NCBI GenBank assembly: GCA_030647415.1
Contig: JAUSKB010000026.1
Location: 74,894 to 138,893 of the forward strand
Direction of reading: 5' to 3'
DNA from: a bacterium
GTDB taxonomy: Bacteria; Patescibacteriota; Minisyncoccia; UBA6257; GWB1-50-10
DNA: 64,000 nucleotides
Part shown: positions 29,862 to 62,961 of the stretch, piece by piece
Numbering within the stretch: the stretch's first letter is position 1
How the letters are laid out: the number at the start of each line of letters is the position of its first letter
The notes under the pieces: model-generated
Told to the model about the DNA's origin: nothing
Database searches by the model: none
Seen by the model: the letters and a program-made list of their open reading frames with translations, nothing else
Program-made: the position numbers and the translations under genes

Positions 29862-29916
29862 TGATTCCTTATCACACTGTAAAGGTCGGTTTTCCTTCAC
29901 GGTTCAATCCTATCAC

Positions 29917-30279: not shown

Positions 30280-30281
30280 TT

Positions 30282-32255: not shown

Positions 32256-32277
32256 TAAAAGAAAAAGGAGGGATTTA

Positions 32278-35463: not shown

Positions 35464-35467
35464 CTTC

Positions 35468-47630: not shown

Positions 47631-47646
47631 GGTTTGTATTCGTTCA

Positions 47647-48951: not shown

Positions 48952-49051
48952 GGGCGTCTCGCGAAGAGATATTTCTGTCCGCACGGCAACGGAACGCCTG
49001 AGGAAAAATGTGTATAATGACAGGGACGCTGGCGTTTCCGGCTTTCCCCCC

Positions 49052-49858: not shown

Positions 49859-49863
49859 TTTCC

Positions 49864-51564
49864 ATGCGACACTTCATCATCAGTTTCCTCATCGCCGGTA
49901 TTGTGACCGCCGGGCTCTTCGTGCCGCGCGCTCCCGCGAGCGCGCTCGCGGTTCCCGTGTTCGACCCCGCACATACCGGAACCACCGCTGGCGGATGGGT
50001 TGCACAAGCGGTGCGCTTCACGCTCGAGCAAACGCTGAAGGCGTTGCTCGAAACACTGAAAAAACGCCTCCTCGACACCATGACCGACCAGGTCATCACC
50101 TGGATTCAGGGCGGAGGGGAGCCGCGGTTCGTCCAAAACTTCGGCGACGTCCTGGGCGATGCGGGGAGCATCGCGGTGGACGCGACCGTCCGGGAGCTCC
50201 GGCAGGTGGAGTTCTTCGACCCCGCGCTCCTCTCCATGCTCGAGGGAGGGGTTGCCGCGGGCGCCACGCGTTCGTTCGTGGAACGCCTCACCCCCACCCT
50301 CCCCGACGTCGTGCCGAGCGTGCAGCAGTTTCGGGGGAACTTCGACGCGGGCGGCTTCCTCGCCTACCGCGAGCTCTTCAACCCGCAGAACAATCCGTGG
50401 GGACTCCAGATGCTCGTCGAAGACGAGGTGATCCGGAAGGCGGCGGCGGAAACAGAGAAGGCAAAAATTGAACAGGTCGCCGAGCAGGGGTTCGAGGGAC
50501 AGAAACGGTGTCTCCTCTGGACGCGGAGCGTCCTCATGCAGAGCGGACCTGATGTGGAGCAGACCTTTCAGCCGGGAGACACGGGGTGGCTCGAACAGTT
50601 CTACAACCTAAAGACACCGCCGACTGGCCGGCCCCTCCCCCCCAATCCGGTACCGGGAATCTACCCCTGGCTCTGCGAACCGGGGAACCAGGAGCGCACG
50701 ACGCCGGGGAGTGCAATCGCCGAGGGGGTGCGCCGGTCGCTTTTCACCGACGTTGATTATGTCGCGAACTCGGATAGTCTCGGGAAGTACCTCGCCGCCA
50801 TCATGGACGCGGCCTTCAACCGCATGATCCGCGACGCGGGGGGGGCGGCGGAACGTCTCGTCCGAGGTTTTGCGGGGCTTGAGAAGTCACAAACCGGACG
50901 ACCGCAAAGCCAACAATTTATCCCTCCCCTGCCGGAAACACCATCGGGCCTCCTCGAGGGGTCACAAGGGGGGTACACCTCGGGGACTATTAGCATCCAA
51001 CAGCAGGAAATTGCGGCGCTGAACGATATGAAGCAGCTACTCCTCTCGACGATAGACCGTTTGAAACAGAACCTGACGACGATCCGCCAGACACTCATTG
51101 ATACGCTCGCGGCAGACCAGGCGGGGCTCCGCGCGCTCACCTATGGTTTAACACCGCGGGGGCTCTTCCAGTGCTTCACGCAGGACCCCCTCGACCCCAC
51201 CAGAACGCCGCCGCCCAGCTTCGTGCCGCCAAACTTGAGTATCACCACTATTTCCTCGCACGTTTCCCAAATGTCGCTCGCGGCGACCACGAGGAGGAAT
51301 GATATCAACACGAATAAAATCCCATCCTTGAACGCGACCACCACGCACGCAAACATTCTCCGTGGTCAGATCGCCGCAACCGTGCTCCCGAGAGATCGCG
51401 ACCTCCTCATGAACTCGTTCAGGGTGTCGGTACAGAACCTGGAGAATGATATCGGCTCGTTCGAGGGGTCCGTACAAACCGTCGCTCTGGCATCACAAAC
51501 ATTCAAAAATAACACGCTGCAGAACCTCGCCGAGTGCGAGCGGACCCGCCTCACCCCCCTGTAA
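49864..51564 (+). CDS. secreted hypothetical protein (first gene of the T4SS-like cluster)
   Basis: 566 aa; signal peptide; no catalytic motif. Confidence 0.5.
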   Translation: MRHFIISFLIAGIVTAGLFVPRAPASALAVPVFDPAHTGTTAGGWVAQAVRFTLEQTLKALLETLKKRLLDTMTDQVITWIQGGGEPRFVQNFGDVLGDAGSIAVDATVRELRQVEFFDPALLSMLEGGVAAGATRSFVERLTPTLPDVVPSVQQFRGNFDAGGFLAYRELFNPQNNPWGLQMLVEDEVIRKAAAETEKAKIEQVAEQGFEGQKRCLLWTRSVLMQSGPDVEQTFQPGDTGWLEQFYNLKTPPTGRPLPPNPVPGIYPWLCEPGNQERTTPGSAIAEGVRRSLFTDVDYVANSDSLGKYLAAIMDAAFNRMIRDAGGAAERLVRGFAGLEKSQTGRPQSQQFIPPLPETPSGLLEGSQGGYTSGTISIQQQEIAALNDMKQLLLSTIDRLKQNLTTIRQTLIDTLAADQAGLRALTYGLTPRGLFQCFTQDPLDPTRTPPPSFVPPNLSITTISSHVSQMSLAATTRRNDINTNKIPSLNATTTHANILRGQIAATVLPRDRDLLMNSFRVSVQNLENDIGSFEGSVQTVALASQTFKNNTLQNLAECERTRLTPL

Positions 51565-51570
51565 ACGCCA

Positions 51571-53883
51571 ATGCGCACGAAACGAACGGTAAGCATCTTC
51601 CTCGCCGCCGCGCTCCTCACCGCGGGCGGGTTCTTTGCTGTAACTAATACTGCACACGCGCTGATGTACGGCAATAATTCTAATCCTATTAAGCAGTGGC
51701 TAGTAGGTACAGGCCTCGACATCCTCCAGGCGTTCGCTACCGGCATTTCGTACATCCTGAACTTCCTTGGGGGTCTCGCCTTCGCCTTCGGGAACATGCT
51801 GACCCAGACGATGTTGGCACTCAACTACCAGGTGCTCGACAGTTCGAACACCATCGTAACCGTCGGGTGGGGCATCACGCGGGATGTGGCGAACCTCGGC
51901 TTCGTCCTCCTCATTATCTTGGTCGCGCTCGCGACCATCGTCCGCTACCCCTCGGAGTACCAGGCGCAAAAGCTCCTGCCCCGCCTCATCGCCGCCGCCC
52001 TCCTTGTGAACTTCTCGATCGCCATCGTAACGCCGCTCATTGATTTTTCGGACACCTTGACGCAGAGCTTCGCATCGCGTATCGGTGGCGATGATTTGCC
52101 CGGCATTCCTGGGTCCGGATTCGTCGGGCGAATCTCAAATGCCTTCGGCCCCCATCGGCTTCTTATCCCCCCTGCGGGAGGTTTACCTGAACCGGTAGGT
52201 TTCAATACTTTTAGCAAGGCGTTCCTCACGACCGTCGGCGGGCTCTTTTTCAGCTTCATATTCACCTGGCTCGCCGCCCTCGTCATGCTCGCCATCGCCT
52301 TCATGCTCTTCCTCCGGTATGTGCACCTGACCTTCCTCCTCGCCATCGCGCCTATTGTCTGGCTCTTCTGGGTCTTCCCGGGGCTCGAGAAGCACTGGAG
52401 CACCTGGTGGAGCGATTTCCTCAAGTGGGTTTTCTTCGCGCCCGCGGTCATGTTCTTCATCTACCTCGCGGTTACGGCGATGGATGCTATGGGATCGATG
52501 CCTGTCGAGGGGCTCACGGGGTCGGACTTCTTTGAAACCTTTATTCTTTCGATCATCTCGCAGGGAACCCAGATGGCCGTCCTCGGCGCCTTCCTTGTCG
52601 GCTCGCTCATCGTCGGCCAGAAGTTCGGCATCGCCGGGGCGGGGGCGGCATTGAACATCGCAAAGGCGGCAAAAACGCAGGGGCTGAAGCTCGCGGGCCA
52701 GCGGGTGAAGCTCGCGGGGCGGGCGGCGGCGGGGAAGGCTAGTACGGTACTCAAGGGCGGTCTCGAAGAAAAGGGTTTGATGAAGTACCCGAAGAAGGGG
52801 TTGAATCTCATGGGCCGTGGCACCTCGTTCGTGCTCGGCGGTGGTAAAAAGTTAGATGAGGCATTAAAGGTAAAGGACACTGATTCGGGTTTCAAGAAGC
52901 TTGGCAAGCGTTTTGCGGGTGGTGTTCTTGGCGTCACTGGCGGACGCGCCCTCTTGAAGGGTGCGGGTGGGCTTGAGAAAACACTCACTACCGCCTCCGG
53001 CCGCGACGTGAAGGTGGACTCGGTCGGCGGCGCGATGTTCAAGACCGTGAAGGGGGAGTTCCTGAAAGAGATGGGCTTTGAACAGGAAAAGCCTGAGAAG
53101 ACGACGGACGATCATGTGAAGGATCTGAAGGATGTTGTGAAACAGAAAAAAGCATTGAAAGACAAGGGCGCGCTCACGCCAGAATCAGAGAAGGAGTGGG
53201 ATAAGAAGATCGAGCGGGCGAAGGGGATGGTCCGCAACTCGCTCGAGCGGCCAGGGACCCCAGAGGGGTTGGACAGGCAAATCGAGCAGCTGAAGAGCAA
53301 GCAGGCGGAATTCTACGACCCGAAGAATGGCCTCGATGGCAGCGTATTCGACGACCTCATTAAGGAAAGGGTGATTGAGCGGGATCGGATCATAGAACGC
53401 GAGGGCAGGAAATCCGACGCGACACGCGAGGTTGAGGCGAAAATAGGCGAGCTGAACGGAGGGCGAATCGCCGCGCTGAAGGCGGGGGACCCGGAGGTCA
53501 CCGTCAAAACAAAACAGACGCAACCGGACGGCACCGAAGTGGAGGTTGAGCGGCAGCAGAAGTTGAGTTCGCTGTTTGATGAACAGATCGTGGCCGCGGA
53601 AAAAATCCGAACCGCCCTATTCGACGTCGACGAGCGACTGCGAAAGAACGAGCCGTGGAAGGACCAACAGCTCCAAATGGGGCTTGAAAAACTTCGAGAC
53701 AACATTACGGGCTTGAACAAGGGAATCACCGGTCTCTCCAGGGTCGTTGACAACACGAAAAACGCCGCGTTAGTGAAGCCGGGGTTGATCCAATGGGAAC
53801 CGTTTAAACAAACAGAAGAGAAGGCTAGCGGCGGTGCGAATAAGAAAGGAGATGGTGGCACCGTAGACACCGACACCTCGTAA
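51571..53883 (+). CDS. VirB6/TrbL-like polytopic membrane protein with a long K/E/G-rich C-terminal tail
   Basis: 770 aa; signal peptide, at least 6 TM helices over the first 400 aa, then a hydrophilic repetitive tail. Confidence 0.5.
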   Translation: MRTKRTVSIFLAAALLTAGGFFAVTNTAHALMYGNNSNPIKQWLVGTGLDILQAFATGISYILNFLGGLAFAFGNMLTQTMLALNYQVLDSSNTIVTVGWGITRDVANLGFVLLIILVALATIVRYPSEYQAQKLLPRLIAAALLVNFSIAIVTPLIDFSDTLTQSFASRIGGDDLPGIPGSGFVGRISNAFGPHRLLIPPAGGLPEPVGFNTFSKAFLTTVGGLFFSFIFTWLAALVMLAIAFMLFLRYVHLTFLLAIAPIVWLFWVFPGLEKHWSTWWSDFLKWVFFAPAVMFFIYLAVTAMDAMGSMPVEGLTGSDFFETFILSIISQGTQMAVLGAFLVGSLIVGQKFGIAGAGAALNIAKAAKTQGLKLAGQRVKLAGRAAAGKASTVLKGGLEEKGLMKYPKKGLNLMGRGTSFVLGGGKKLDEALKVKDTDSGFKKLGKRFAGGVLGVTGGRALLKGAGGLEKTLTTASGRDVKVDSVGGAMFKTVKGEFLKEMGFEQEKPEKTTDDHVKDLKDVVKQKKALKDKGALTPESEKEWDKKIERAKGMVRNSLERPGTPEGLDRQIEQLKSKQAEFYDPKNGLDGSVFDDLIKERVIERDRIIEREGRKSDATREVEAKIGELNGGRIAALKAGDPEVTVKTKQTQPDGTEVEVERQQKLSSLFDEQIVAAEKIRTALFDVDERLRKNEPWKDQQLQMGLEKLRDNITGLNKGITGLSRVVDNTKNAALVKPGLIQWEPFKQTEEKASGGANKKGDGGTVDTDTS

Positions 53884-53967
53884 TCTAATCTCAACAAGCA
53901 GAGGCAAGCTGAGGCCGAGCGGCAGCGGAAAGCCGGTGGAGCAACACCAAATCCATAACCCATTTAT

Positions 53968-54067
53968 CCTGTTAGAAGTTTACAGATAGTTATTTATATG
54001 GAAAATATTATTGTTATGCAAAATAAAATTGTGAAGTGGCGGTGTTTGCGCGTAAACTTCTAACAGG
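53968..54067. repeat. Family A palindromic element, copy A12; the right end is followed directly by the ATG at 54068
   Basis: CCTGTTAGAAGTTTACAGATAG ... TTGCGCGTAAACTTCTAACAGG-ATGAACCTC. Confidence 0.85.
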
Positions 54068-55072
54068 ATGAACCTCTCGAATATAACTTTTGAGCTGCTC
54101 TCCGAACGGTACGAGGAGATACCGGAACGGTTTCGGGAGCTCCTCGAGTCACCCGGCACAAAAACAACACTCGTGCGCATCGGGGCGCAACACGCGCTTG
54201 ACCACGAACGGCAAACACTCCTTGAGGCGCTGGTCGGTCTTGTCTTCACCGGTTTCCTCTCCCCGGATGACCTCGCGGGGGAGTTTGTCGACCGCCTCTT
54301 CCTGAACTTCGTCCACGCCCGCGCGCTCGCCCGCGAGGTGGACGAGACCTTCTTCGCGCCGCACCGCCGCGACCTCGTTCGCGTCTACAACCCCGTGGGC
54401 GGGGTACCGCAGGGCCCAACCGTCCGGAGTGCGGAACGACCTATGATTGGATTGCCTTCACAAGTAGGAAAGACGATTTCACTTGAATCCATCGGCGCTT
54501 CAGGCGGTAGGGAACAAAAGCTTCCCATTAACGAGGTTGCGGCGCCGCTCGTGATTCTCGGCTCCAGCTCCCCCACCCTCCGCAAACCGATTATTCCGAA
54601 CCGCCCGCCGGAACGCCTGTTTGCCAGCCAGGCAGGCCTGCCTACCCATCCGACCGAGTTATCCGGGCGAGCCGGACAAACGGTTTCGGAGAAGCCGGTG
54701 TACCACTCACCCTTTTCCTTCCGGTTCCCGTTCCGCTCACCGCAGGCGGCGCGTACCCCGCTGGGCGACTCCACGGGACCGACCGCGACCGTCCGATTGC
54801 CCGGCAGTGCGGCACCAGCGCAGAAGAAGGATGGGCTTCATATTGTCCACTATGCGGAAACACGCGGGAGACTCGGCCCGCCGCTATCAACCGGAAAGGG
54901 GGGGGTAGTGAACCTGGACCAGCTGGGGGCGCAGCAAAGAAAAGAGACAAGAGAAAAAGGACAAGAGACGCCCATCGCACCGACAACCGACAACCGACAA
55001 CCGACAACCATCCCGAAACCACAGCCGAAGATCGATGGGAACACCATAGACCTCCGGGCAAATAAACTCTAA
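54068..55072 (+). CDS. hypothetical Pro-rich protein containing an in-frame variant of the 28-bp repeat
   Basis: 334 aa; starts MNL, identical 5' end to the 28020 gene; PTHPTELSGRAGQT is encoded by the repeat at 54641-54672. Confidence 0.5.
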   Translation: MNLSNITFELLSERYEEIPERFRELLESPGTKTTLVRIGAQHALDHERQTLLEALVGLVFTGFLSPDDLAGEFVDRLFLNFVHARALAREVDETFFAPHRRDLVRVYNPVGGVPQGPTVRSAERPMIGLPSQVGKTISLESIGASGGREQKLPINEVAAPLVILGSSSPTLRKPIIPNRPPERLFASQAGLPTHPTELSGRAGQTVSEKPVYHSPFSFRFPFRSPQAARTPLGDSTGPTATVRLPGSAAPAQKKDGLHIVHYAETRGRLGPPLSTGKGGVVNLDQLGAQQRKETREKGQETPIAPTTDNRQPTTIPKPQPKIDGNTIDLRANKL

Positions 55073-55125
55073 ATCCGAAACTCTAAATCCTAAACAAGCA
55101 CGAAATTCTAAACTCTAAACCACTG
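55066..55125. repeat. Family C repeat (CTCTAAATCCGAAAC(C/T)CTAAATCCTAAACAA...), forward arm C1
   Basis: Inverted partner at 55516-55580; together they bracket the four-helix-bundle gene. Confidence 0.8.
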
Positions 55126-55129
55126 CATT

Positions 55130-55495
55130 ATGGAACCGAGCGTGGGCTTGAAACGGTATGATTTGGAGGCGCGAACGCTTCAATTTACAAGGGATGTCAT
55201 TTCGTTCGTTTCCGCCCTTCCCCGGAGTATTGCCAATATTGAAATCATCAAACAGCTCATCCGGGCGACTGGTTCGGTGGGAGCGAATTATATAGAAGCG
55301 AATGAGTCCGTAAGCAGAAAGGACTTTCTCTTACGAGTTAAGATTTCCAAAAAAGAGTCGCGAGAGGCAATATACTGGTTGGAGCTCGTACAATGCTCAA
55401 ATGAGCAATGTGAAGTTAGGAGGCGTGAATTGATCCGAGAAGCGACCGAGCTCATGAAAATTCTCGGTTCAATCGTCGAAAAATCATCTCGGTGA
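55130..55495 (+). CDS. four-helix-bundle protein (TIGR02436 / 23S rRNA intervening-sequence protein; Avd-like)
   Basis: 121 aa; RATGSVGANYIEANESVSRKDFLLRVKISKKESREAIYWLEL matches the family core; lower GC than neighbours. Confidence 0.7.
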   Translation: MEPSVGLKRYDLEARTLQFTRDVISFVSALPRSIANIEIIKQLIRATGSVGANYIEANESVSRKDFLLRVKISKKESREAIYWLELVQCSNEQCEVRRRELIREATELMKILGSIVEKSSR

Positions 55496-55515
55496 TATTG
55501 CATTCATGATTTTTC

Positions 55516-55580
55516 CCTGTTTCGGATTTGAGATTTGGAATTTGTTTAGGGTTTAGGGTTTCGAATTTAGAATTTATCTG
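55516..55580. repeat. Family C repeat, reverse arm C2 (GTTTAGGGTTTAGGGTTTCGAATTTAGAATTT)
   Basis: Reverse complement of the C1 motifs. Confidence 0.8.
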
Positions 55581-55581
55581 T

Positions 55582-56079
55582 ATGAATTTTCAGGTCCCCC
55601 AATTCATCTCGGAAAAGGCCCACATCATCGGGCCGCTCACCTTCGCCCAGCTCGGCTACCTCATGGGCGCGGGCTTTATCGCGTTCCTTTTCTTCTCATT
55701 TTTCACGCCGTTCGTCGCGGGCTCGTTTTCTGCGGTGTTTGTCGGGGTCGCGCTCGCGCTCGCGCTCGGAAAGTTCAATGGGGTGAGTATTGCATCCATC
55801 CTTGTCGGCGCGGTCGGGTACCTCTGGAAGCCACGGGTGTACACCTGGCAACGGACATTTGCCACACAGACCTTTGACGCCTCAAGCGTAGATAAAATAG
55901 AGGCGATGCGGCGGAAGATGGGCGTCGAGGAAAAACTCAAGGCGATTGCGCTTTCGGTCACCACCGGAAAGATCTTCGCGCCAAAGGCGCCGGAGGTCGC
56001 CGCTGATGCCCAGCGATTCCAAATGGTGAGCTACCTGACCGGTGAAAAGAAGCTCGCGAAGAGAATCGACTACAGGTAG
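55582..56079 (+). CDS. small membrane protein, possibly VirB3-like (by position upstream of virB4)
   Basis: 166 aa from the internal ATG; 2-3 TM helices; matches the VirB3-VirB4 gene order. Confidence 0.3.
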   Translation: MNFQVPQFISEKAHIIGPLTFAQLGYLMGAGFIAFLFFSFFTPFVAGSFSAVFVGVALALALGKFNGVSIASILVGAVGYLWKPRVYTWQRTFATQTFDASSVDKIEAMRRKMGVEEKLKAIALSVTTGKIFAPKAPEVAADAQRFQMVSYLTGEKKLAKRIDYR

Positions 56080-56089
56080 AATAAGGTAA

Positions 56090-56228
56090 GCTCTAAATCC
56101 GAAACCCTAAATCCTAAACAAATTCGAAATTCCAAACACACTCATAAATGATGATGAAACATGATGCCATTTCGAATTTCGTGCTTGGAATTTGTTTAGA
56201 GTTTCGATATTAGGATTTAGAATTTCTA
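56090..56228. repeat. Family C palindromic element C3 (forward and reverse arms, no cargo)
   Basis: GCTCTAAATCCGAAACCCTAAATCCTAAACAAATTCGAAATTCCAA ... TTGGAATTTGTTTAGAGTTTCGATATTAGGATTTAGAATTTC. Confidence 0.8.
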
Positions 56229-56893
56229 TGGAAAAGGGTCTCCCCACACAATCATTTGTCGCCGTCAAAGAGGTTCGAAACGGCATCGTCCACCTGAAAG
56301 ACGGCGGCCTGCGCCAGCTCCTCATCGTCTCCGGCGTGAACTTCGACCTGAAGGCGGAGGAGGAGCAGGCACTTATTCTGAACACCTTCCAAAATTTCCT
56401 GAACACGCTCGACTTCACGATGCAGTGCTTCATCCATTCCCGGAAGGTGAATGTGGACACCTACCTGGACCGCATGCGCTCGCGGCAGCTCGAGGAACCG
56501 AATGAGCTCTTGAAGATCCAGATTGCCGAGTATATCGACTTCATCGCCGCGTTCGTGGACCAGAACGCCATCATATCAAAAACCTTCTTTGTGGTGGTCC
56601 CGTACGATCCGCCAGTGACGTCCGGAGCGGCGACCAAGGGCGTGCTTGGCTTCTTCAAGAAACGCGAGGCGGCGACGGTCATCGCGGACGAGGCGGCAAC
56701 GCTCCAGGAGCACTTGAAGCAGCTCGAACAGCGGGTGACACAGGCGACCGAGGGCCTCCTCCAGATCGGGCTACGGGCAGTCCGGCTCCGCGACGACGAG
56801 ACCATCGAGTTGTTCTACAACCTCTACAATCCGGAACTGGTCGAGAAGAAGGGGCTCGACATAGCAAAGCCAGACAAAGCCGGAAAATCCTAA
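56228..56893 (+). CDS. virB4: VirB4/ConE-family ATPase, N-terminal fragment (split gene)
   Basis: 222 aa; IVHLKDGGLRQLLIVSGVNFDLKAEEEQALILNTFQNFLNTLDFTMQ fits the CagE/TrbE/VirB4 N-terminal domain pattern; 222+587 aa equals a normal VirB4 length. Confidence 0.5.
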   Translation: MEKGLPTQSFVAVKEVRNGIVHLKDGGLRQLLIVSGVNFDLKAEEEQALILNTFQNFLNTLDFTMQCFIHSRKVNVDTYLDRMRSRQLEEPNELLKIQIAEYIDFIAAFVDQNAIISKTFFVVVPYDPPVTSGAATKGVLGFFKKREAATVIADEAATLQEHLKQLEQRVTQATEGLLQIGLRAVRLRDDETIELFYNLYNPELVEKKGLDIAKPDKAGKS

Positions 56894-57012
56894 GCACGAA
56901 ACCCTAAATCCTAAACAAACCCGAATGTTCCAAATCCGAAACGGTGCGCATGCGTTTGTGGTTTCGTGCTTCGATATTGTTTCGGATTTCGATATTAGAA
57001 TTTAGGATTTCT
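56893..57012. repeat. Family C palindromic element C4, lying between the two virB4 fragments
   Basis: AGCACGAAACCCTAAATCCTAAACAAACCCGAATGTTCCAAATCCGAAAC ... GTTTCGTGCTTCGATATTGTTTCGGATTTCGATATTAGAATTTAGGATTTCT. Confidence 0.8.
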
Positions 57013-57038
57013 AACACAGAACTTATACCACTACGACC

Positions 57039-58802
57039 ATGAAGTTCTCCATCCCTAAAGCCTACACCCCCTCTCCCGACGACCTGCCGAGCGTCATCGC
57101 GCCTGCGGGTGTCGAGGTGAATCCGTCGCACCTGAAGCTTGGCGACTACCTCGTGAAGACCTTCTTCATCTTCACCTACCCGCGGTACCTCACCTCGAGC
57201 TGGTTCTCGCCCATCATCAATCTGACGGAGATGATGGAGATCTCGATCTTCTTCCACCCGATGGACACCGCGACGGCGCTCCGGGACCTTCGGAAGAAGG
57301 TGACGCAAATCGAGGCGGAGCTTTCCGAAAAGGAGGAGAAGGGGCTGGTGCGGGACCCGCAGCTCGAGACGGCGTACCAGGACGTGGAATCACTCCGCGA
57401 CTCGCTCCTCCAGGCGCGCGAGAAGCTGTTCTCGGTCGCTGTCTACATCACTCTTTACGGGAGGAACGCGGACGACCTCGAGAAGGTCGCGCAGGCGACG
57501 CAATCCCTCCTTGAGTCAAAGCTGGTGTATATGAAACCGGCGCTCTTCCGCCAAATCGAGGGATTTACCTCCATGCTTCCCATTGGACGCGACGTGCTGG
57601 AAATTCGGACCCCCTTGAACTCCGGCCCCGCCTCCTCGCTCTTCCCCTTCGTCTCGCCGGACCTCTCGTCGGACAAGGGAATCCTGTACGGCGTGAACCT
57701 CCACAACAACTCGCTTGTCATCTTCGACCGCTTCTCGCTCGAGAACGCGAACTCGGTCATCTTCGCAAAATCCGGTGCTGGAAAATCGTTCACCGCGAAG
57801 CTCCAAATCCTCCGGTCGCTCATGGTCGGCACGAACGTCATTGTCATCGACCCGGAGAACGAGTACCAGAACCTTGCGAACGCCATCGGCGGCAGCTACT
57901 TCAAGATCTCTCTCACCTCCCCGAACCATGTGAACCCGTTCGACATCCCCCTTATGCCCGCGGGGGAGGAGCCGGCAGACGTCTTCAAGTCGCACGTCCT
58001 GAATCTCACTGGCCTCGTGAAGCTCATGCTGGGCGCCATCACGCCGGAGGAGGACTCACTCCTCGACCGTGTTATTACCGAGACCTATGCCTCCCGCGAC
58101 ATCACCGCGGCGACCTTCGGCGAAGCCAAGGAAGAGCTGAATCCACCCCTCCTCGAGGACCTGCAAATTATTCTCCAGAACACCGAGGGCGGACAGGGAA
58201 TGTCCCAGCGCCTTGAGAAGTTCGTGCACGGCTCGTACGCCGGGTTCACGAACGCGCCGACGAACGTCGACATCAAGAACCGGCTCATCGTCTTTTCGAT
58301 GCGCGACCTCGAGGAGGAGCTCCGGCCGGTCGCGATGTACATCATCACGAACTTCATCTGGAACCTCATCCGCTCGGAGTTGAAACCCCGGCTCCTCATG
58401 ATCGACGAGGCGTGGATCATGATGAAGTATAAGGATTCGGCGCAGTTTCTCTTCGGCCTCGTGAAGCGCGCCCGAAAGTACTACCTCGGCATCACCACCA
58501 TCTCCCAGGAGGTTGAGGATTTCCTGAAATCTGACTATGGCCGCCCCATCATCACGAACTCCTCCATTCAGCTCCTGATGAAGCAGTCGCCGACCTCCAT
58601 CGAGGCGGTCGCGAAGGCGTTCGACCTGACCGAGGGGGAGCGGGAGCTCCTCCTTGAGGCGGGGATCGGCGAGGGGCTCTTCTTCGCGGGATTGAAACAC
58701 GTCGCCATTAAGGTGGTCGCCTCATACACCGAGGACCAGATTATTACTACCAACCCGGAACAGCTGCTGGAGGCGAAGGGGCTCGGGGGACAGAAGACAT
58801 AA
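57039..58802 (+). CDS. virB4: VirB4/TrbE/ConE-family type IV secretion ATPase, C-terminal portion
   Basis: 587 aa; Walker A FAKSGAGKSFT at about residue 247, Walker B LLMIDEAW; placing Walker A at residue 247 of a full-length protein would be unusually far N-terminal, consistent with a missing N-terminus. Confidence 0.85.
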   Translation: MKFSIPKAYTPSPDDLPSVIAPAGVEVNPSHLKLGDYLVKTFFIFTYPRYLTSSWFSPIINLTEMMEISIFFHPMDTATALRDLRKKVTQIEAELSEKEEKGLVRDPQLETAYQDVESLRDSLLQAREKLFSVAVYITLYGRNADDLEKVAQATQSLLESKLVYMKPALFRQIEGFTSMLPIGRDVLEIRTPLNSGPASSLFPFVSPDLSSDKGILYGVNLHNNSLVIFDRFSLENANSVIFAKSGAGKSFTAKLQILRSLMVGTNVIVIDPENEYQNLANAIGGSYFKISLTSPNHVNPFDIPLMPAGEEPADVFKSHVLNLTGLVKLMLGAITPEEDSLLDRVITETYASRDITAATFGEAKEELNPPLLEDLQIILQNTEGGQGMSQRLEKFVHGSYAGFTNAPTNVDIKNRLIVFSMRDLEEELRPVAMYIITNFIWNLIRSELKPRLLMIDEAWIMMKYKDSAQFLFGLVKRARKYYLGITTISQEVEDFLKSDYGRPIITNSSIQLLMKQSPTSIEAVAKAFDLTEGERELLLEAGIGEGLFFAGLKHVAIKVVASYTEDQIITTNPEQLLEAKGLGGQKT

Positions 58803-58868
58803 GATAAAAACAATTTCCAAGTCCCAATTTCTAATTTCTAAAAATACTAAGAAAAAGGATAGATATAT

Positions 58869-59432
58869 ATGGACGAGCACAAAAAATTCACCGAGGCGGA
58901 GATGCTCGTGGGGGTGCTCCTCCTCACCCTCCCCGTTGACGCGCTCTCCTTCCTCATCGACTGGACCGGGATTGGTCTCGCGATCGCACCGATCATCCAG
59001 AGCGCAGCGATGTTCGGCATCTGGTTGTGGCTCCGCTCGAAGGGGGACACGGCGTCCGTGAAACTCGGGAAACAGCTTCTGCGCTACCTCTCAAACCTCC
59101 TACCGCTTTTGCCGACCGTCACCATCGTCTTCTTGATCGAGGTGTACCTCCACAATCATCCGGAAACCAGCATCGCGAAAGTAGCGCAGGGGGTGAATGC
59201 GGCGAAGGCGGGAATGGGTGCGACCGGAGGCGCCGCCGCGCGCCTCAAGGCCGCCCGAACGGCGTACCGCGAGGCGCCGGTGGATATGAAACAGATCGAG
59301 GCAATGGAGCGAGCACGGGCTGGAGCCCGCCCGGCAGTGCGCCACAACGTACCGTCGCCAGCCGGAAATCCCGCTCCGGTTCAAACTACCTCGTCGGAGG
59401 AGGCTGATGATAAAATTCGAATGGCCGCATAA
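58869..59432 (+). CDS. hypothetical membrane protein (T4SS-like cluster)
   Basis: 187 aa; 2-3 TM helices; A/R-rich tail. Confidence 0.45.
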   Translation: MDEHKKFTEAEMLVGVLLLTLPVDALSFLIDWTGIGLAIAPIIQSAAMFGIWLWLRSKGDTASVKLGKQLLRYLSNLLPLLPTVTIVFLIEVYLHNHPETSIAKVAQGVNAAKAGMGATGGAAARLKAARTAYREAPVDMKQIEAMERARAGARPAVRHNVPSPAGNPAPVQTTSSEEADDKIRMAA

Positions 59433-59461
59433 GGGTCTGCTTCGTGATACAATAGGGGTGT

Positions 59462-60151
59462 ATGGATTTCGCGCGCCACGTCGTATCGCTCGCTATTCTC
59501 GCGGGGATCCTCGGAACACTTACGTTCATTCCCGCACGAGCCCAAGAGCCACCACAAGCGTCCGGGTTGAATCTCATCCTCACCTGGGAGGCGGAGGTTT
59601 TCTCGCCGCCCAGCTACCGCGGCAGGAGTATCCCCCCGCCCGGCGGAGCGGCGGTGGTGATGCTTGCGGCGACGGACGGCCGGGGGGCGCTCACTGACCT
59701 CTCACCGTACCGGATCACCTGGTCGCGCGGCGGAAAGTTCGTGGAGGGCGGGACGGGCCTCACCACCCGCTCCCTCACCCTCGGCGCGAGCCCAAACCGG
59801 GAACTGGTGCGCGCGTCGGTCTACGGCTCGACCGGAGACCTCGTCGCGGAGGTGTCAATGATTATCCCCACGGCAAAGCCACGCATCGTGCTCTCCCCAG
59901 AACCGGCGGCTGAAAATCCAGGGTTCATTCTCCTCCGCGCCCTCCTCCTCTCATTCAGCGTCCCTGATATCGAGGACATCACCGTGTCTTGGGACGTTCC
60001 CGGGGGGGCGCCGGGCGACTCGTTCGACACCTTTTTCGTTCCCGCGGTTCCCAACCTATCCGTTGTGGGATCTGTCACCGCGCGGAACCCTCAACGGGTG
60101 CTCGAGTATGCGAAGCAGTTCATTAAATTGCCCTATGCGACATTCGAGTAA
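59462..60151 (+). CDS. secreted hypothetical protein (T4SS-like cluster)
   Basis: 229 aa with a signal peptide. Confidence 0.45.
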   Translation: MDFARHVVSLAILAGILGTLTFIPARAQEPPQASGLNLILTWEAEVFSPPSYRGRSIPPPGGAAVVMLAATDGRGALTDLSPYRITWSRGGKFVEGGTGLTTRSLTLGASPNRELVRASVYGSTGDLVAEVSMIIPTAKPRIVLSPEPAAENPGFILLRALLLSFSVPDIEDITVSWDVPGGAPGDSFDTFFVPAVPNLSVVGSVTARNPQRVLEYAKQFIKLPYATFE

Positions 60152-60596
60152 AATTTTCTGGCTCGCGCTCCCCGCGCTCCTTCTAGTCGCATCGCAGGTC
60201 GAGGCGCGCGCGGGCTTCCTCGGCGCCTCATCCACCGAGGATTTCATCTCAAAGCTCTACACCTACAGCATCGGGTTGGGCGGCCTCCTCGCAGTCGGCG
60301 CGATCGTCACGGGCGGCATCCTCATCGCGACCTCCGGGGTCGTGAACAAGCAGCAGCTCGGCCGCGACCTCATCGCCGGGGCGCTCTGGGGGCTCGCCCT
60401 CCTCTTAGGCGCCTATTTCCTTCTAAAGACCGTAAACCCGCAACTCGTTAAATTGAAAGTGCCCGGCATCACACTCTGCACTGGCACCCAAACACCGGAG
60501 CGCGACGGGTGTCTCAAGGCCTGCGTTCCGCGCGAGAACAAGATCCCCGGCGTCGAGTGCTACCCGACGGCGGCAACCACGACTCCTCCCATCTAA
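60135..60596 (+). CDS. VirB2-like pilin-type protein with a C-terminal 4-Cys tail
   Basis: Signal peptide; helix-VVNKQQLGRD-helix architecture; start chosen at the internal ATG overlapping the previous gene. Confidence 0.4.
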   Translation: MRHSSKIFWLALPALLLVASQVEARAGFLGASSTEDFISKLYTYSIGLGGLLAVGAIVTGGILIATSGVVNKQQLGRDLIAGALWGLALLLGAYFLLKTVNPQLVKLKVPGITLCTGTQTPERDGCLKACVPRENKIPGVECYPTAATTTPPI

Positions 60597-60611
60597 CATC
60601 TCCACTATGAT

Positions 60612-60716
60612 GCGTCCCGTTAGAAATCTAACGCTTATGAAACATCACGCGAATCACCACAGAAACTGCACATCAGCCGTGTCGGCGGCTGGAACCAATC
60701 CAAATTTCTAACGGGA
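60612..60716. repeat. Family A palindromic element, degenerate copy A13; the right end is followed directly by the ATG at 60716
   Basis: GCGTCCCGTTAGAAATCTAACG ... CAAATTTCTAACGGGATGCG. Confidence 0.7.
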
Positions 60717-61927
60717 TGCGCCTCTGGATAAAAATCGCTCTCTTCTCGATCCTGCTCGTTGTAGTCGGCGTTGGTGTCTACTTCGCGCTCTCAAATCGCG
60801 GACCGGCTATCGTCGAACTGCCTCCGGGCGGGAGGGGTCCCGGCGGCTTTCCCATCCCGTATGCGAGCGGCACTCCGGGAGCTGGCGGATCTGGTGGAGG
60901 CAGCACTACATCAACCGTGCCAGAGAGACCGGAAACGCCCGCTCCAGCCGAAGTCAGCGTTACGCCGATCTCCGACCACCCGGTCTTCGACTTCTGGATG
61001 AACCCGGCGACCAGTGAGGTGTTCTACCTCGCGGCGGACGGTAGGGTCTTCCGGGAACGCGACGGTTTAGATGAGGCGCTCTCAAGCGAGGAGTTATATA
61101 ATCTCATCTCGGTCGAGGTATCCACCGACCGGCAGCGTGTGCTCGTATCGCTCGGTGCCACACATGCTCCAGAGTGGCGTATATTCGACATACTCGACCG
61201 CGCCTGGCGCCCCCTGCCGCCGGGAATTGTCGCCGCCACCTGGGGGTCCAGACCGGACCGCATCATTGCCCAGGTGAGCCGCCCCGCCGAGTCGCGGAAG
61301 CTCGTCGAGGTGGACCTCTCCCGCCCCTCGTTTCCCGAGACGGCGCTCGTGGCGAACTTCGAGCTATTGAACGTCTCGCTCCACGCCGTGCGGCAAAACA
61401 CCCTCCTCATAACCGAACAACCGTCAGAGAAAACGAACGGTCGGGTCTGGAACTTCGATCTCACGAGGAAGACGCTTTCCCTGCTCTTCACTCCCTCGCC
61501 GGGGCTTATGGTATCCATTCCGAGGAACGGCTCGGTGGGGTTTCTCTCTATGTCGCCTCGGGAGTTCCAGATCTTTTCGTTCGGCGCAGGCATCCAGCCG
61601 CTCGCCGCGGTTCCCTTCAGGACCTTCCCGCAAAAGTGCGCCCTCGCCGCGAGCACCACCCTCTGCTTCGCCCCCGTCCGTTTCACCGGGCTTCTCTCGT
61701 CGCTCTCCCTCCCCGACGACTGGCTCTCCGGCGCGGCAATCGCGACGGACCAGCTTTTCCGCACGAACCTCACGGACGGCGAGACGGACCTCATGTTCTC
61801 GAGTGGCGAGACGGACCTCCCGGCACTCGACGCGGTCCGCGTCGAGGCGGCTGCGAATGACCTCTATGTTTTAAACCGGCGCGACCGGACGCTCTACCGC
61901 GTCACCATGCCCGCACAAACCCCATGA
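60716..61927 (+). CDS. hypothetical membrane-anchored protein (G-rich linker, possible beta-propeller domain)
   Basis: 403 aa; TM anchor; GGSGGGSTTS linker. Confidence 0.45.
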   Translation: MRLWIKIALFSILLVVVGVGVYFALSNRGPAIVELPPGGRGPGGFPIPYASGTPGAGGSGGGSTTSTVPERPETPAPAEVSVTPISDHPVFDFWMNPATSEVFYLAADGRVFRERDGLDEALSSEELYNLISVEVSTDRQRVLVSLGATHAPEWRIFDILDRAWRPLPPGIVAATWGSRPDRIIAQVSRPAESRKLVEVDLSRPSFPETALVANFELLNVSLHAVRQNTLLITEQPSEKTNGRVWNFDLTRKTLSLLFTPSPGLMVSIPRNGSVGFLSMSPREFQIFSFGAGIQPLAAVPFRTFPQKCALAASTTLCFAPVRFTGLLSSLSLPDDWLSGAAIATDQLFRTNLTDGETDLMFSSGETDLPALDAVRVEAAANDLYVLNRRDRTLYRVTMPAQTP

Positions 61928-62961
61928 AGCGCATCGGTATTATATTTGTGCTTTCTGCCGCGCTTGGTGTCTCACTTGCGCCCGCCGTCGCCATCGCGCG
62001 CTCGCTCACGAACCCCATCTGGGATGGGCGGTACCCGGTCTCCTGCAATGTGGGGGGATCACCGTGTACCTTCTGCGACCTCCTGAAGGTGGGCGCGAAC
62101 ATTATTGACACCCTGACCCTGCTCGTCATTCCCATCGGCGCCGCAGTCATCGTCTACGGCGGCTTCCGCATCATGACGGCCGGGAGCTCGCCAACCGGTC
62201 TTTCAACTGGAAAAGAGGCGATGAAGATGGCGGGTATCGGCATCGCCATCTCCCTCTCCGGGTGGCTCATTGTGAACACCGTCTTCTCCCTCCTCTCGGG
62301 CGGCGGGTCCCTGACCGCCATCCAGTGCCCCGCGGGCGATATATTCACCAGGGTTCCCTACATACCGGTGGGCGCGGACTGCAGCAGAATCAAGCTCTCA
62401 ATGTCAGGCGATACCCCTCTCGGCACCGTCTGGACGGTGCAGGATGCCACCGCGCGCGGCTACTCACCGACTACCTGGTGCAAACCTGAAAAAGTGGGTT
62501 CAAACCTGATTACAATTCAGAGTGAAATCTCCTGGCTTCAAGAAACAACAAGCCGCAGTATTACACCAAACTCAGCCTTTCGCCCAAAGTCATACCAGAA
62601 ACACCTCCGAGAGGTATGGGATGCGAAGCAACTCCTCACCGAGATTCCCACGCTCACCGCAAACTGTGCCGCCGACGCAGCAATCGTAAACTCGGAGTTC
62701 TCACGCCACGGACTCAATTCGAGAGTGTCTGATGAGGGTAGCAGCCCCCACGAGCGCGGCTACGGCGTGGACCTTTCGATCGGCGGATGCGGAAACGCAA
62801 ATTTTACAGGACAGTGCTCAGAGCTCTACGACAGAATTGATACAATCCTAAAGAGCACGCAGGACAACCATATACCAAAACTCAAGTGGAACAAGATTCG
62901 GGGAGACGAGGTACACTTCGACCTTCTCCCGACCCAGCGGCAGGAAAACAGGGGGTGCTAG
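61924..62961 (+). CDS. fusion protein: VirB2-like pilin domain + peptidase M15 (VanY/LAS-type) cell-wall hydrolase domain
   Basis: N-terminus: signal peptide, helix-TAGSSPTGLSTGKEAMKM-helix; C-terminus: SPHERGYGVDL matches the LAS metallopeptidase SxHxxGxAxD motif. Confidence 0.5.
   Translation: MKRIGIIFVLSAALGVSLAPAVAIARSLTNPIWDGRYPVSCNVGGSPCTFCDLLKVGANIIDTLTLLVIPIGAAVIVYGGFRIMTAGSSPTGLSTGKEAMKMAGIGIAISLSGWLIVNTVFSLLSGGGSLTAIQCPAGDIFTRVPYIPVGADCSRIKLSMSGDTPLGTVWTVQDATARGYSPTTWCKPEKVGSNLITIQSEISWLQETTSRSITPNSAFRPKSYQKHLREVWDAKQLLTEIPTLTANCAADAAIVNSEFSRHGLNSRVSDEGSSPHERGYGVDLSIGGCGNANFTGQCSELYDRIDTILKSTQDNHIPKLKWNKIRGDEVHFDLLPTQRQENRGC

What the first reader, a model, noticed from the sequence alone, without database searches (positions are those of the whole stretch)
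49864..62961. Type IV secretion-like gene cluster of unusual composition
In order, the cluster contains: a secreted 566-aa protein; a VirB6/TrbL-like polytopic membrane protein with a 330-aa K/E/G-rich tail; a Pro-rich hypothetical; a four-helix-bundle cassette; a VirB3-like small membrane protein; split VirB4; two further membrane or secreted hypotheticals; a VirB2-like pilin with a Cys-rich tail; a membrane-anchored 403-aa protein; and a pilin-M15 peptidase fusion. No VirD4 coupling protein, relaxase, VirB8, VirB9, VirB10 or VirB11 homolog is recognisable in the window. The system is either a minimal Gram-positive-like or CPR-type T4SS (conjugation, DNA uptake or host interaction) or a degenerate one. 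It is interleaved with mobile palindromic elements.
Basis: partly seen in the sequence, partly recalled or inferred. Interest (0 to 1): 0.7.

Follow-up and report, generated by a model that had tools for sequence, protein, structure and literature searches.

The report
Patescibacteria-type type IV secretion locus
This is the chromosomal type IV secretion gene cluster that ultrasmall Patescibacteria (here a Jorgensenbacteria relative) carry next to their replication origin; it is real and intact, but this kind of system was already described in 2023-2025.

Summary
Window 49010-62961 holds a co-directional operon. It encodes PrgI/VirB3, a TrsD-like VirB4 N-domain protein, a VirB4 ATPase (NCBIfam CD1110 family, 7e-108), an extended VirB6-like membrane protein and two VirB2-like pilin-domain proteins, one fused to a VanY/M15-like peptidase. 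Six further proteins are conserved but have no family match.

The whole order, ksgA-...-jag-yidC, recurs in more than 50 Patescibacteria species, so the cluster is vertically inherited, not degenerate and not on a mobile element. The "split VirB4" is the normal two-gene trsD+virB4 arrangement: 66 of 72 relatives are split and 6 are fused.

No coupling protein, relaxase or VirB8-11 is found in the window. This matches the Patescibacteria T4SS described by Quinonero-Coronel et al. 2025 (PMC12102498). According to reviews that cite Wang et al. 2023, the system is essential for epibiotic growth in a Saccharibacterium. The locus is therefore a new member of a known kind.

Additions from this work:
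- The six accessory genes are syntenic.
- One of them (229 aa) is predicted as a membrane-anchored tandem Ig/FN3 protein, not VirB8.
- The pilin-peptidase fusion is a recurrent architecture.
- Five palindromic elements sit in intergenic junctions, some supplying start codons and one enclosing a 23S-IVS-protein gene.

The parts
49010..49858 (+).
   Evidence: Syntenic directly after ksgA and before the 566-aa gene in 35 loci at 13-25% identity. One TM segment. No Pfam, NCBIfam or PDB-profile hit.
49864..51564 (+). 566-aa exported or anchored protein: an N-terminal domain conserved in relatives plus a C-terminal helical bundle
   Evidence: Orthologues in 53 loci. N-terminal hydrophobic segment. 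The AF2 model is poor (pLDDT 56) except for the helical region 375-562. Only coiled-coil matches in PDB. No VirB5/TrbJ hit in 43 orthologues.
51571..53883 (+). 770-aa extended VirB6-like polytopic membrane protein with a 390-aa K/G/E-rich tail
   Evidence: 6 TM segments; tail composition K 13.6%, G 12.3%, E 9.2%. Three of 44 orthologues hit TrbL/VirB6 PF04610, best 1.1e-6. Weak CD3337/EF1877 mobilome membrane protein hit at 0.0033. Orthologues in 60 loci.
53963..54072 (.). A-type palindromic element; its right arm ...CTAACAGGATG supplies the ATG of the next gene
   Evidence: Hairpin MFE -34.5, z -3.8. The junction is 184 nt here against a median of 7.5 nt in orthologous loci.
54068..55072 (+). 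334-aa Pro-rich protein without a TM segment (probably cytoplasmic)
   Evidence: Orthologues in 35 loci with conserved motifs VVHYSE..RTP and EGN.IDL. No family or PDB hit.
55063..55580 (.). B-type palindromic cassette (B1) enclosing the 121-aa 23S_rRNA_IVP four-helix-bundle gene (55130-55495, + strand)
   Evidence: PF05635 2e-13. Arms 55063-55113 and 55520-55580 pair at -53.8 kcal/mol when joined. An IVP gene is present in the cluster in only 3 of 80 related loci, so it is an insertion.
55582..56079 (+). PrgI / VirB3-like small membrane protein (165 aa from the ATG)
   Evidence: PF12666 PrgI 1.5e-5. 2 TM segments. Present in 71 of 80 loci directly upstream of the VirB4 genes.
56087..56230 (.). 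B-type palindrome (B2), without an internal gene
   Evidence: MFE -33.9, z -2.8. Junction 148 nt against a median of 29 nt.
56228..56893 (+). TrsD-like protein, a stand-alone VirB4 N-terminal domain (221 aa)
   Evidence: NCBIfam TrsD/TraD 1.1e-10; also matches VirB4 N-termini (VirB4_plasma, VirB4_CagE, CD1110 positions 8-100). It is a separate ORF in 66 of 72 related species and fused to VirB4 in 6.
56884..57015 (.). B-type palindrome (B3) in the trsD-virB4 junction; its left arm contains the TAA stop of the TrsD-like gene
   Evidence: Junction 145 nt against a median of 2 nt. Ten of 70 relatives also carry inserts at this junction.
57039..58802 (+). VirB4 ATPase (remainder of the N-terminal domain plus the P-loop domain)
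   Evidence: conju_CD1110 7.2e-108, above cut-off. TraG P-loop 6.5e-27. PDB 4AG5 5.5e-46 and TrwK 1.5e-4. Walker A AKSGAGKS and Walker B LLMIDE. 56-79% identity to 80 Patescibacteria species.
58869..59432 (+). 187-aa protein with 3 TM segments; conserved partner directly downstream of virB4
   Evidence: Orthologues in 46 loci. TM scan. No family or PDB hit.
59462..60151 (+). 229-aa membrane-anchored protein with two Ig/FN3-like beta-sandwich domains
60063..60596 (+). VirB2-like T4SS pilin-domain protein with a Cys-rich C-terminal tail (probable start at ATG 60108 or 60135)
   Evidence: PF18895 T4SS_pilin 5e-4. 2 TM segments and 6 Cys. Homologues in about 60 loci.
60616..60718 (.). A-type-variant palindrome (CCCGTTAGAAAT ... 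ATTTCTAACGGGATG) supplying the ATG of the 403-aa gene
60716..61927 (+). 403-aa protein: one TM segment, a Gly/Pro-rich linker, then a probable beta-propeller ectodomain
   Evidence: Orthologues in 53 loci. Weak scattered beta-propeller Pfam hits in orthologues (Aladin, Kelch, WDR5, PD40). No PDB sequence hit.
61924..62961 (+). VirB2-like pilin domain fused to a VanY/M15 (LAS) metallopeptidase-like domain
   Evidence: T4SS_pilin 4.4e-5, VanY 0.069. Motifs HERGYGVD (276-283) and DEVHF (328-332). Among the best 150 of 2767 hits in the 50%-identity representative library, roughly 15 or more have the same two-part layout. Eight of 10 scanned homologues hit both domains. Not found in the 80 related loci at E<1e-4.
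29334..30644 (+). Separate array of three T4SS_pilin genes, 20 kb upstream, followed by a PMT-family glycosyltransferase gene (30762-32141)
   Evidence: PF18895 5.4e-9, 6.5e-9 and 1.3e-12, all above cut-off. ORFs.

Best explanation
The region is the chromosomal, vertically inherited Patescibacteria-clade type IV secretion system of a Jorgensenbacteria-like (Paceibacteria) genome. It lies between ksgA and jag-yidC-dnaA, beside the replication origin.

Shown here:
- A membrane translocon core: PrgI/VirB3-like protein, TrsD-like VirB4 N-domain protein, VirB4 ATPase and an extended VirB6-like channel protein.
- VirB2-like pilins: two in the cluster and three in a separate array.
- Six lineage-specific proteins that stay syntenic in dozens of species. 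Four have N-terminal anchors and are probably extracytoplasmic, one has 3 TM segments, and one is Pro-rich and probably cytoplasmic.
- No relaxase and no coupling protein nearby.

Inferred:
- The two-piece VirB4 energises assembly of a pilus-bearing conduit across a monoderm envelope.
- The anchored Ig-like, propeller-like and helical proteins form or decorate its extracellular part.
- The pilin-tethered VanY-like peptidase cuts peptidoglycan stem peptides, either locally (a VirB1-like role) or on the host wall.
- The machine serves contact-dependent exchange with a host cell (effector export or uptake of host macromolecules) rather than conjugation.
- The palindromic elements are secondary insertions in intergenic junctions and leave all reading frames intact.
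For: - Family assignments.
- All 80 best VirB4 relatives are Patescibacteria.
- The order ksgA-282-566-770-334-PrgI-TrsD-VirB4-187-229-pilin-403-jag-yidC recurs in more than 50 species, with tightly packed junctions (median 1-8 nt).
- trsD and virB4 are separate ORFs in 66 of 72 relatives, often with an ATGA overlap.
- dnaA and dnaN lie just beyond yidC on a contig carrying the identical Jag protein.
- No T4CP, relaxase or VirB8-11 in the window.
- The best plasmid homologues are monoderm CD1110-type VirB4s at 28-34% identity.
- Literature: PMC12102498 describes exactly this repertoire (TrsD next to VirB4, PrgI, VirB6, PF18895 pilin arrays, no relaxase, ksgA/dnaA neighbourhood). PMC11665869 and PMC12857230 report that the Saccharibacterial homologue is essential for epibiotic growth and that its role is unknown. 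A 2026 preprint reports possible T4SS pili at a parasite-host interface.
Against: - Function is inferred by homology to a distant class (Saccharimonadia); nothing here shows direction or substrate of transport.
- The VirB6 call for the window protein rests on orthologues rather than a direct hit.
- The PrgI hit and the two cluster pilin hits are below Pfam gathering scores.
- The genome outside the window (contig of 145 kb) was not searched, so a distant T4CP or relaxase cannot be excluded.
- The four expanded junctions could impair translational coupling.
Confidence: 0.85

Rival explanations
1. It is a DNA or nucleic-acid uptake machine, analogous to the Helicobacter pylori ComB T4SS. On this view it imports host nucleic acids to feed an organism that cannot make nucleotides. 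This is a sub-hypothesis about direction of transport, and is compatible with the identity given above.
For: - No T4CP, relaxase or VirB11 in the window, as in ComB.
- PMC11665869 names the T4SS as a candidate nucleotide-acquisition route.
- A 2026 preprint links Minisyncoccota parasitism to host RNA and to VirB4.
- ComM, RecA, PNPase and nuclease-family genes are in the same window.
Against: - ComB needs VirB7-10 homologues, which are absent here.
- No DNA-binding or nuclease component is encoded inside the cluster.
- There is no experimental evidence in any Patescibacterium.
Confidence: 0.35
2. It is a conjugative or ICE-borne Gram-positive-type T4SS (MPF_FATA) caught in a chromosome, used for DNA transfer.
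For: VirB4 is CD1110-type and TrsD and PrgI are MPF_FATA components. The nearest plasmid homologues are from conjugative monoderm plasmids.
Against: - The same chromosomal neighbours (ksgA, jag, yidC) are found in more than 50 species.
- No relaxase, T4CP, integrase or replication gene in the 64-kb window or in about 6.5 kb beyond it.
- VirB2-like pilins are atypical for MPF_FATA (PMC12102498).
- Identity to plasmid VirB4s is only 28-34%.
Confidence: 0.04
3. It is a decaying remnant. VirB4 is broken in two and the operon is riddled with mobile palindromes, so the system is non-functional.
For: - Two VirB4 ORFs are separated by 145 nt that hold a palindrome.
- Four junctions are expanded relative to orthologues.
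- The 566-aa protein has lost cysteines that are conserved in relatives.
Against: - The split is ancestral: 66 of 72 relatives.
- All 12 genes retain full-length frames with orthologue-like lengths.
- The catalytic motifs are intact.
- The palindromes lie strictly between genes, and similar inserts occur at the same junctions in other genomes with intact genes.
Confidence: 0.05

Closest known systems
Patescibacteria-clade T4SS, as catalogued by Quinonero-Coronel et al. 2025 (PMC12102498) and studied genetically in Southlakia epibionticum ML1 (Wang et al. 2023, cited in PMC12857230)
   Same: - Chromosomal location.
- VirB4 with an adjacent TrsD-like gene.
- PrgI/VirB3, VirB6 and PF18895 VirB2-like pilins, including an array.
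- No relaxase.
- T4CP not adjacent.
- Location near ksgA and dnaA.
   Different: - This is a Paceibacteria/Jorgensenbacteria version.
- The pilin array is 20 kb away rather than in the cluster.
- The hydrolase is a VanY-like domain fused to a pilin domain, rather than the separate peptidase and lysozyme genes reported downstream of virB4 in ML1.
- Five palindromic inserts are present.
Staphylococcal pGO1/pSK41 Trs system (MPF_FATA subclass with TrsC-TrsD-TrsE)
   Same: The same three-gene core logic: a VirB3-like small membrane protein, a separate TrsD protein homologous to the VirB4 N-terminus, then the VirB4 ATPase (PMC12102498).
   Different: The pGO1 system is plasmid-borne and conjugative, has a relaxase and a coupling protein, and lacks VirB2-like pilins. 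PMC12102498 also reports no VirB6 homologue in that subclass.
Enterococcal pCF10 Prg/Pcf T4SS
   Same: PrgI-like and VirB4 (PrgJ)-like proteins and a VirB6-like polytopic protein (PrgH); monoderm envelope; no VirB7/9/10 core.
   Different: pCF10 has VirB8-like PrgL/PrgD, the PrgK hydrolase, the PrgB adhesin, the PcfC coupling protein and a relaxase. None of these is detectable here. Pilins are present here and absent there.
Helicobacter pylori ComB DNA-uptake T4SS
   Same: A T4SS without a coupling protein, relaxase or VirB11, used for something other than conjugation.
   Different: ComB is a diderm system with VirB7-10 homologues. No sequence-level relationship beyond VirB4 was examined here.

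Membership tests
Patescibacteria-clade T4SS (MPF_FATA-derived) | VirB4 ATPase with intact P-loop motifs, most similar to monoderm (CD1110-type) VirB4 | tested here: met
   conju_CD1110 7.2e-108, above cut-off. 4AG5 5.5e-46. Walker A and B present. Plasmid best hits are Streptomyces, Bacillus and Clostridium.
Patescibacteria-clade T4SS (MPF_FATA-derived) | VirB4 branches inside the monophyletic Patescibacteria clade | not tested
   No tree was built. Indirect only: all 80 best genome hits are Patescibacteria at 56-79% identity.
Patescibacteria-clade T4SS (MPF_FATA-derived) | TrsD-like gene adjacent to virB4 | tested here: met
   TrsD/TraD 1.1e-10. A separate ORF upstream of virB4 in 66 of 72 relatives.
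Patescibacteria-clade T4SS (MPF_FATA-derived) | VirB3/PrgI-like small membrane protein near virB4 | tested here: met
   PF12666 1.5e-5, 25.9 bits against a cut-off of 27, so slightly sub-threshold. 2 TM segments. Syntenic in 71 of 80 loci.
Patescibacteria-clade T4SS (MPF_FATA-derived) | VirB6-like polytopic membrane protein | tested here: inconclusive
   The window protein has no Pfam hit and a weak CD3337/EF1877 hit at 0.0033. Three of 44 orthologues hit TrbL/VirB6, best 1.1e-6. 6 TM segments. No PDB VirB6 hit with the family profile.
Patescibacteria-clade T4SS (MPF_FATA-derived) | VirB2-like pilins of family PF18895, often in arrays | tested here: met
   The array genes score above the cut-off (36.4, 36.2 and 48.0 bits). 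The two cluster genes score 20.5 and 23.9 bits, below the cut-off of 26.6. A homologue of the fusion also hits TrbC/VirB2.
Patescibacteria-clade T4SS (MPF_FATA-derived) | Chromosomal, near ksgA and dnaA, without an adjacent relaxase | tested here: met
   ksgA at 45899-46708. jag and yidC at the window end. dnaA and dnaN beyond it. No relaxase domain in the window.
Patescibacteria-clade T4SS (MPF_FATA-derived) | Required for host-dependent (epibiotic) growth | not testable with these tools
   Known only for S. epibionticum ML1.
Conjugative MPF_FATA T4SS (pCF10 / pGO1 / ICE type) | Relaxase and VirD4/TcpA-type coupling protein associated with the cluster | tested here: not met
   None in the 64-kb window. 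The only FtsK-like ATPase is a canonical FtsK with 4TM, alpha and gamma domains. The rest of the genome was not searched.
Conjugative MPF_FATA T4SS (pCF10 / pGO1 / ICE type) | VirB8-like (NTF2-fold) bitopic protein (PrgL, TraM, TcpC) | tested here: inconclusive
   The best-placed candidate, the 229-aa protein, is a tandem Ig/FN3 fold and not NTF2.
Conjugative MPF_FATA T4SS (pCF10 / pGO1 / ICE type) | Carried on a plasmid or ICE | tested here: not met
   Same housekeeping neighbours in more than 50 species. No integrase or replication genes flank the cluster.
Diderm VirB/VirD4 (MPF_T) T4SS | Outer-membrane core VirB7/VirB9/VirB10 and the VirB11 ATPase | tested here: not met
   No Pfam match in any window ORF scanned.
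Diderm VirB/VirD4 (MPF_T) T4SS | VirB5-type minor pilin | tested here: not met
   The 566-aa protein was considered because of its N-terminal VPVFDP motif. There was no VirB5/TrbJ hit in 43 orthologues or in the PDB profile search, and the model was too poor to compare.
VanY / peptidase M15 (LAS metallopeptidases), for the C-terminal domain of 61924-62961 | Zn ligands H-x6-D ... H, and a profile match | tested here: met
   H276-x6-D283 and H331. VanY 0.069 in the window protein. VanY hits from 1.3e-5 to 0.07 in 8 of 10 homologues, one above the cut-off. No PDB sequence hit. Activity untested.

The most novel reading that the evidence does not exclude
Three linked proposals:

1. The six syntenic, unannotated proteins (282, 566, 334, 187, 229 and 403 aa) are dedicated structural parts of a pilus-bearing monoderm T4SS that has no VirB7-10 or VirB8. 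They would form an extracellular scaffold built from Ig-like, propeller-like and helical-bundle proteins.

2. The VirB2-like pilin fold is reused as an export and display module for enzymes, such as the VanY-like peptidase that would attack host peptidoglycan at the contact site.

3. The start-codon-abutting palindromes (...TCTAACGGG-ATG) and the widely spread IVP-bearing hairpin cassettes are RNA-level processing or translation-control elements of this operon, rather than inert junk.
Probability: 0.3. Interest if true: 0.55.

Novelty: new member of a known kind. Interest (0 to 1): 0.3.

Why it matters
Patescibacteria make up a large share of bacterial diversity. Their T4SS is reported to be the first one essential for survival of the bacterium that carries it, and its substrate and direction of transport are unknown.

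This locus adds nothing categorically new. It does give a well-resolved Paceibacteria example:
- a complete syntenic parts list, including six conserved proteins of unknown role;
- evidence that the two-gene VirB4 (trsD + virB4) is ancestral in this lineage;
- a predicted Ig-like anchored component;
- a recurrent pilin-peptidase fusion.

These are concrete targets for structural and genetic work on how ultrasmall epibionts connect to their hosts.

Tried and rejected
1. VirB5/TrbJ identity for the 566-aa protein. This was prompted by its N-terminal VPVFDP motif, recalled from memory. There was no support from Pfam scans of 43 orthologues, the PDB profile search or the fold search. The model was of low confidence.

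3. Profile-versus-PDB searches for the 403-, 282-, 334- and 187-aa families found nothing significant.

4. All-against-all hhalign among ten cluster families, looking for hidden paralogy, gave no pair above 8% probability.

5. The first homologous-protein run with the single 229-aa sequence returned only 2 proteins. Searching with the alignment gave 18. The 566-aa family gave only 10, which was too shallow for a good model.

6. Rfam found no known RNA family in the palindromes; the only hits in the window were two tRNAs. The promoter and terminator scan of the cluster was not above shuffled expectation.

7. VirB4 disruption by the palindrome was rejected, because the split is conserved without the palindrome in most relatives.

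8. A literature search for IVP/GxxExxY cassettes returned nothing relevant.

Full report
**What is there**

The + strand from 49010 to 62961 carries thirteen co-directional ORFs. Profile searches identify the following:
- A PrgI/VirB3-like two-TM protein at 55582-56079 (PF12666, 1.5e-5).
- A 221-aa protein at 56228-56893 that matches TrsD/TraD (1.1e-10) and the N-termini of several VirB4 models.
- A 587-aa VirB4 ATPase at 57039-58802. It matches NCBIfam conju_CD1110 at 7.2e-108, above the curated cut-off, and TraG P-loop at 6.5e-27. Its closest solved structures are 4AG5 (5.5e-46) and TrwK. Walker A (AKSGAGKS) and Walker B (LLMIDE) are intact.
- Two proteins with the T4SS_pilin domain PF18895, at 60063-60596 and 61924-62961.
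- A 121-aa 23S_rRNA_IVP four-helix-bundle protein at 55130-55495 (2e-13).

The 770-aa protein has six hydrophobic segments and a 390-residue K/G/E-rich tail. It has no direct Pfam hit, but 3 of 44 orthologues hit TrbL/VirB6 (best 1.1e-6), and it gives a weak match to the CD3337/EF1877 mobilome membrane protein family. This fits the 'extended VirB6' type described in PMC12857230.

**Genomic setting**

The rest of the window is ordinary chromosome: FtsH, SHMT, RecA, FtsK, an intein-containing GyrA, PNPase, ComM and KsgA. Jag/KhpB and YidC lie immediately downstream on the other strand. A public contig that encodes the identical Jag protein continues into dnaA, dnaN and a PBP gene. The cluster thus sits beside the replication origin.

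None of the window ORFs scanned matches a coupling protein, relaxase, VirB8, VirB9, VirB10 or VirB11. The scan covered every ORF of 425 aa or more and the other plausible genes of at least 150 aa. The only FtsK-family ATPase is a canonical FtsK.

**Relatives**

A scan of one genome per GTDB species with the VirB4 protein returned 80 loci. All are Patescibacteria (Jorgensenbacteria, Paceibacterota, Brennerbacteria, Harrisonbacteria and others) at 56-79% identity.

tblastn and blastp of all cluster proteins against these loci show the same order in more than 50 species: ksgA - 282 - 566 - 770 - 334 - PrgI - TrsD-like - VirB4 - 187 - 229 - pilin - 403 - jag - yidC.

Junctions are tight, with median gaps of 1-8 nt.

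It is conserved by descent, so it is neither degenerate nor a recent mobile insertion. The nearest plasmid VirB4s are from Streptomyces, Bacillus and Clostridium, at only 28-34% identity.

**The 'split' VirB4**

In 66 of 72 relatives the N-terminal piece (about 215 aa) and the C-terminal piece (about 585 aa) are separate ORFs. They are often joined by an ATGA overlap or by a gap under 15 nt. In the six most distant relatives they form one ORF.

The split is therefore an ancestral, maintained two-gene state. It is the trsD + virB4 arrangement known from pGO1 and reported as the most abundant T4SS-associated hit in Patescibacteria (PMC12102498). The 145-nt spacer in this window is a later insertion into that junction.

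**The unannotated conserved genes**

*566-aa protein.* The model was poor (pLDDT 56) apart from a C-terminal helical bundle. My idea that it might be a VirB5/TrbJ-type minor pilin found no support.

*403-aa family.* It gives weak, scattered beta-propeller hits.

*282-, 334- and 187-aa families.* They match nothing.

No hidden paralogy links the families.

These six proteins are best described as lineage-specific accessory components of unknown role. Four have N-terminal anchors and are probably outside the membrane, one has three TM segments, and one is Pro-rich and probably cytoplasmic.

**The pilin-peptidase fusion**

The 345-aa protein has a signal peptide and two TM helices in the VirB2 pattern. 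Its 220-residue C-terminal domain carries H276-x6-D283 and H331, which is the LAS/M15 zinc-ligand pattern as I know it.

An exhaustive phmmer search of 1.84 billion representatives gave 2767 hits. Most are short pilins, but among the best 150, roughly 15 or more distinct 50%-identity clusters share the full two-domain layout. Eight of ten that were scanned hit both T4SS_pilin and VanY (best 1.3e-5), and one also hits TrbC/VirB2.

The fusion is therefore a recurrent architecture. It is not present in the 80 syntenic loci at E<1e-4, so it is a variable gene at the end of the cluster. Because VirB2-type pilins expose their C-terminus outside the membrane (established knowledge), the peptidase domain should be extracytoplasmic. 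This is consistent with a VirB1-like or host-wall-directed role, which is an inference.

Three more pilin genes form an array at 29334-30644, next to a PMT-family glycosyltransferase gene. This matches the 'VirB2 arrays' of PMC12102498.

**Palindromic elements**

Five elements lie in the cluster, and all are intergenic.

*A-type.* Two elements, at 53963-54072 and 60616-60718. The arms are CYGTTAGA...TCTAACRG around an AT-rich core. The arm motif occurs 18 times in the window against 0.09 expected by chance.

*B-type.* Three elements, with arms built of 7-nt-like units (CTAAATC / CGAAACC):
- B1 (55063-55580) encloses the IVP gene.
- B2 (56087-56230) and B3 (56884-57015) are empty hairpins.

They account for the four expanded junctions. 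B3's left arm provides the TAA stop of the TrsD-like gene. The right arms of the A-type elements provide the ATG of the 334-aa and 403-aa genes.

Cognate palindromes (ATCCCGTTAGAGAC...GTCTCTAACGGGATG) occupy the trsD-virB4 junction in five other genomes and supply the virB4 ATG. A PDDEXK_3 gene flanked by inverted repeats sits at that junction in L074.

Across the window plus the 80 loci, TCTAAC[AG]GG is followed directly by ATG in 14 of 57 cases, and 13 of those ATGs open ORFs of at least 60 aa.

The B-arm 21-mer occurs in at least 120 metagenome contigs with 32-63% GC. Of the 80 contigs fetched, 23 have an inverted partner within 250 nt, and five carry an IVP homologue at 53-57% identity, at least three of them between the arms.

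These elements do not break any gene. Their role (processing sites, translation control or selfish DNA) is open.

**Comparison with the literature**

The gene repertoire, the absence of a relaxase and the ksgA/dnaA neighbourhood match the Patescibacteria T4SS of Quinonero-Coronel et al. 2025 (PMC12102498). Reviews state that the Saccharibacterial homologue is essential for epibiotic growth, that it is unusual among monoderm systems in having VirB2-like pilins, and that its function is unknown. Effector delivery and nucleotide uptake have both been proposed (PMC11665869, PMC12857230). A 2026 preprint reports possible T4SS pili at a parasite-host interface.

**Verdict**

This is a new member of a known kind, so interest is modest (0.3).

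The most likely mechanism is a pilus-bearing monoderm T4SS used for host contact rather than conjugation. Its identity is well supported (0.85). Direction of transport and substrate remain inference.

Points that might repay further work:
- the six syntenic unknowns;
- the pilin-as-carrier architecture;
- the start-codon-abutting palindromes and IVP cassettes.

Noticed in passing
window ~820-925, 950-1055, 18210-18320, 20415-20525, 27913-28024, 32150-32258, 32275-32380, 41298-41505, 53963-54072, 60616-60718; also L012, L020, L026, L028, L031 at ~9870-10001: A family of ~110-nt intergenic palindromes. The arms are CYGTTAGARNNNNAC / inverted, with 18 arm matches in the window against 0.09 expected, and the core is AT-rich. 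The outer end of the arm reads ...TCTAAC(A/G)GG-ATG and supplies the start codon of the downstream gene: the SBP gene at 28020, the 334-aa gene at 54068 and the 403-aa gene at 60716, and virB4 in five other genomes. Across the window plus 80 loci, 14 of 57 arms are followed directly by ATG, and 13 of those open ORFs of at least 60 aa. No Rfam match. Function unknown.
   Followed up: partly
window 55063-55580, 56087-56230, 56884-57015; L082-L161: Hairpin elements whose arms are built of 7-nt-like units (CTAAATC/CGAAACC...). One encloses a 23S_rRNA_IVP four-helix-bundle gene. Of the 80 contigs fetched, 23 have an inverted partner within 250 nt, 5 have one at 330-502 nt, and five carry an IVP homologue (53-57% identity), at least three of them between the arms. 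This looks like a widely spread hairpin cassette with gene-bearing and empty forms.
   Followed up: partly
window 6851-7363 (gene 6887-7303); L074:1280-1749 (gene 1321-1731): PD-(D/E)XK nuclease-family (PF13366 PDDEXK_3) genes are enclosed by perfect inverted repeats made of short periodic units (AGTAATCGCGAATAATGCGAAT / inverse; ACGAACAACACGAAC / inverse). In L074 the cassette sits exactly in the trsD-virB4 junction. The cassette logic is the same as for the IVP gene.
   Followed up: partly
window 24931-27876: The GyrA gene contains an intein (Intein_splicing domain 5e-22 at residues 125-277, inserted in the topoisomerase domain).
   Followed up: no
window 34712-35523 (gene 34837-35463, - strand): A 208-aa protein with a Cas2-like/PaaX_M domain (1.3e-11; CRISPR_Cas2 1.7e-6) is flanked by 43-nt inverted repeats that are 84% complementary. 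No CRISPR array was noticed nearby.
   Followed up: no
window 46719-49000: A 2.3-kb stretch between ksgA and the first T4SS gene is absent from most related loci, where the 282-aa gene follows ksgA directly. It holds a 335-aa E-rich ORF on the - strand, GC-rich repeats (GCCCGCCCGGATGACTCGGTCGGACGGG; copies at 45322-45516 and 47762-47806) and a small secreted-looking 123-aa ORF (48580-48951).
   Followed up: no
window 49864-51564 versus alignment A5: The window's 566-aa protein and its two closest homologues have lost several cysteines that are nearly invariant in the rest of the family (for example SCTL becomes TPTL, and LC is lost). This suggests the loss of disulfides in this sub-lineage.
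   Followed up: no
window 30762-32141 and 35831-37018: PMT-family (protein O-mannosyltransferase-like) membrane glycosyltransferase genes lie directly downstream of the three-gene pilin array. This may indicate pilin glycosylation.
   Followed up: no
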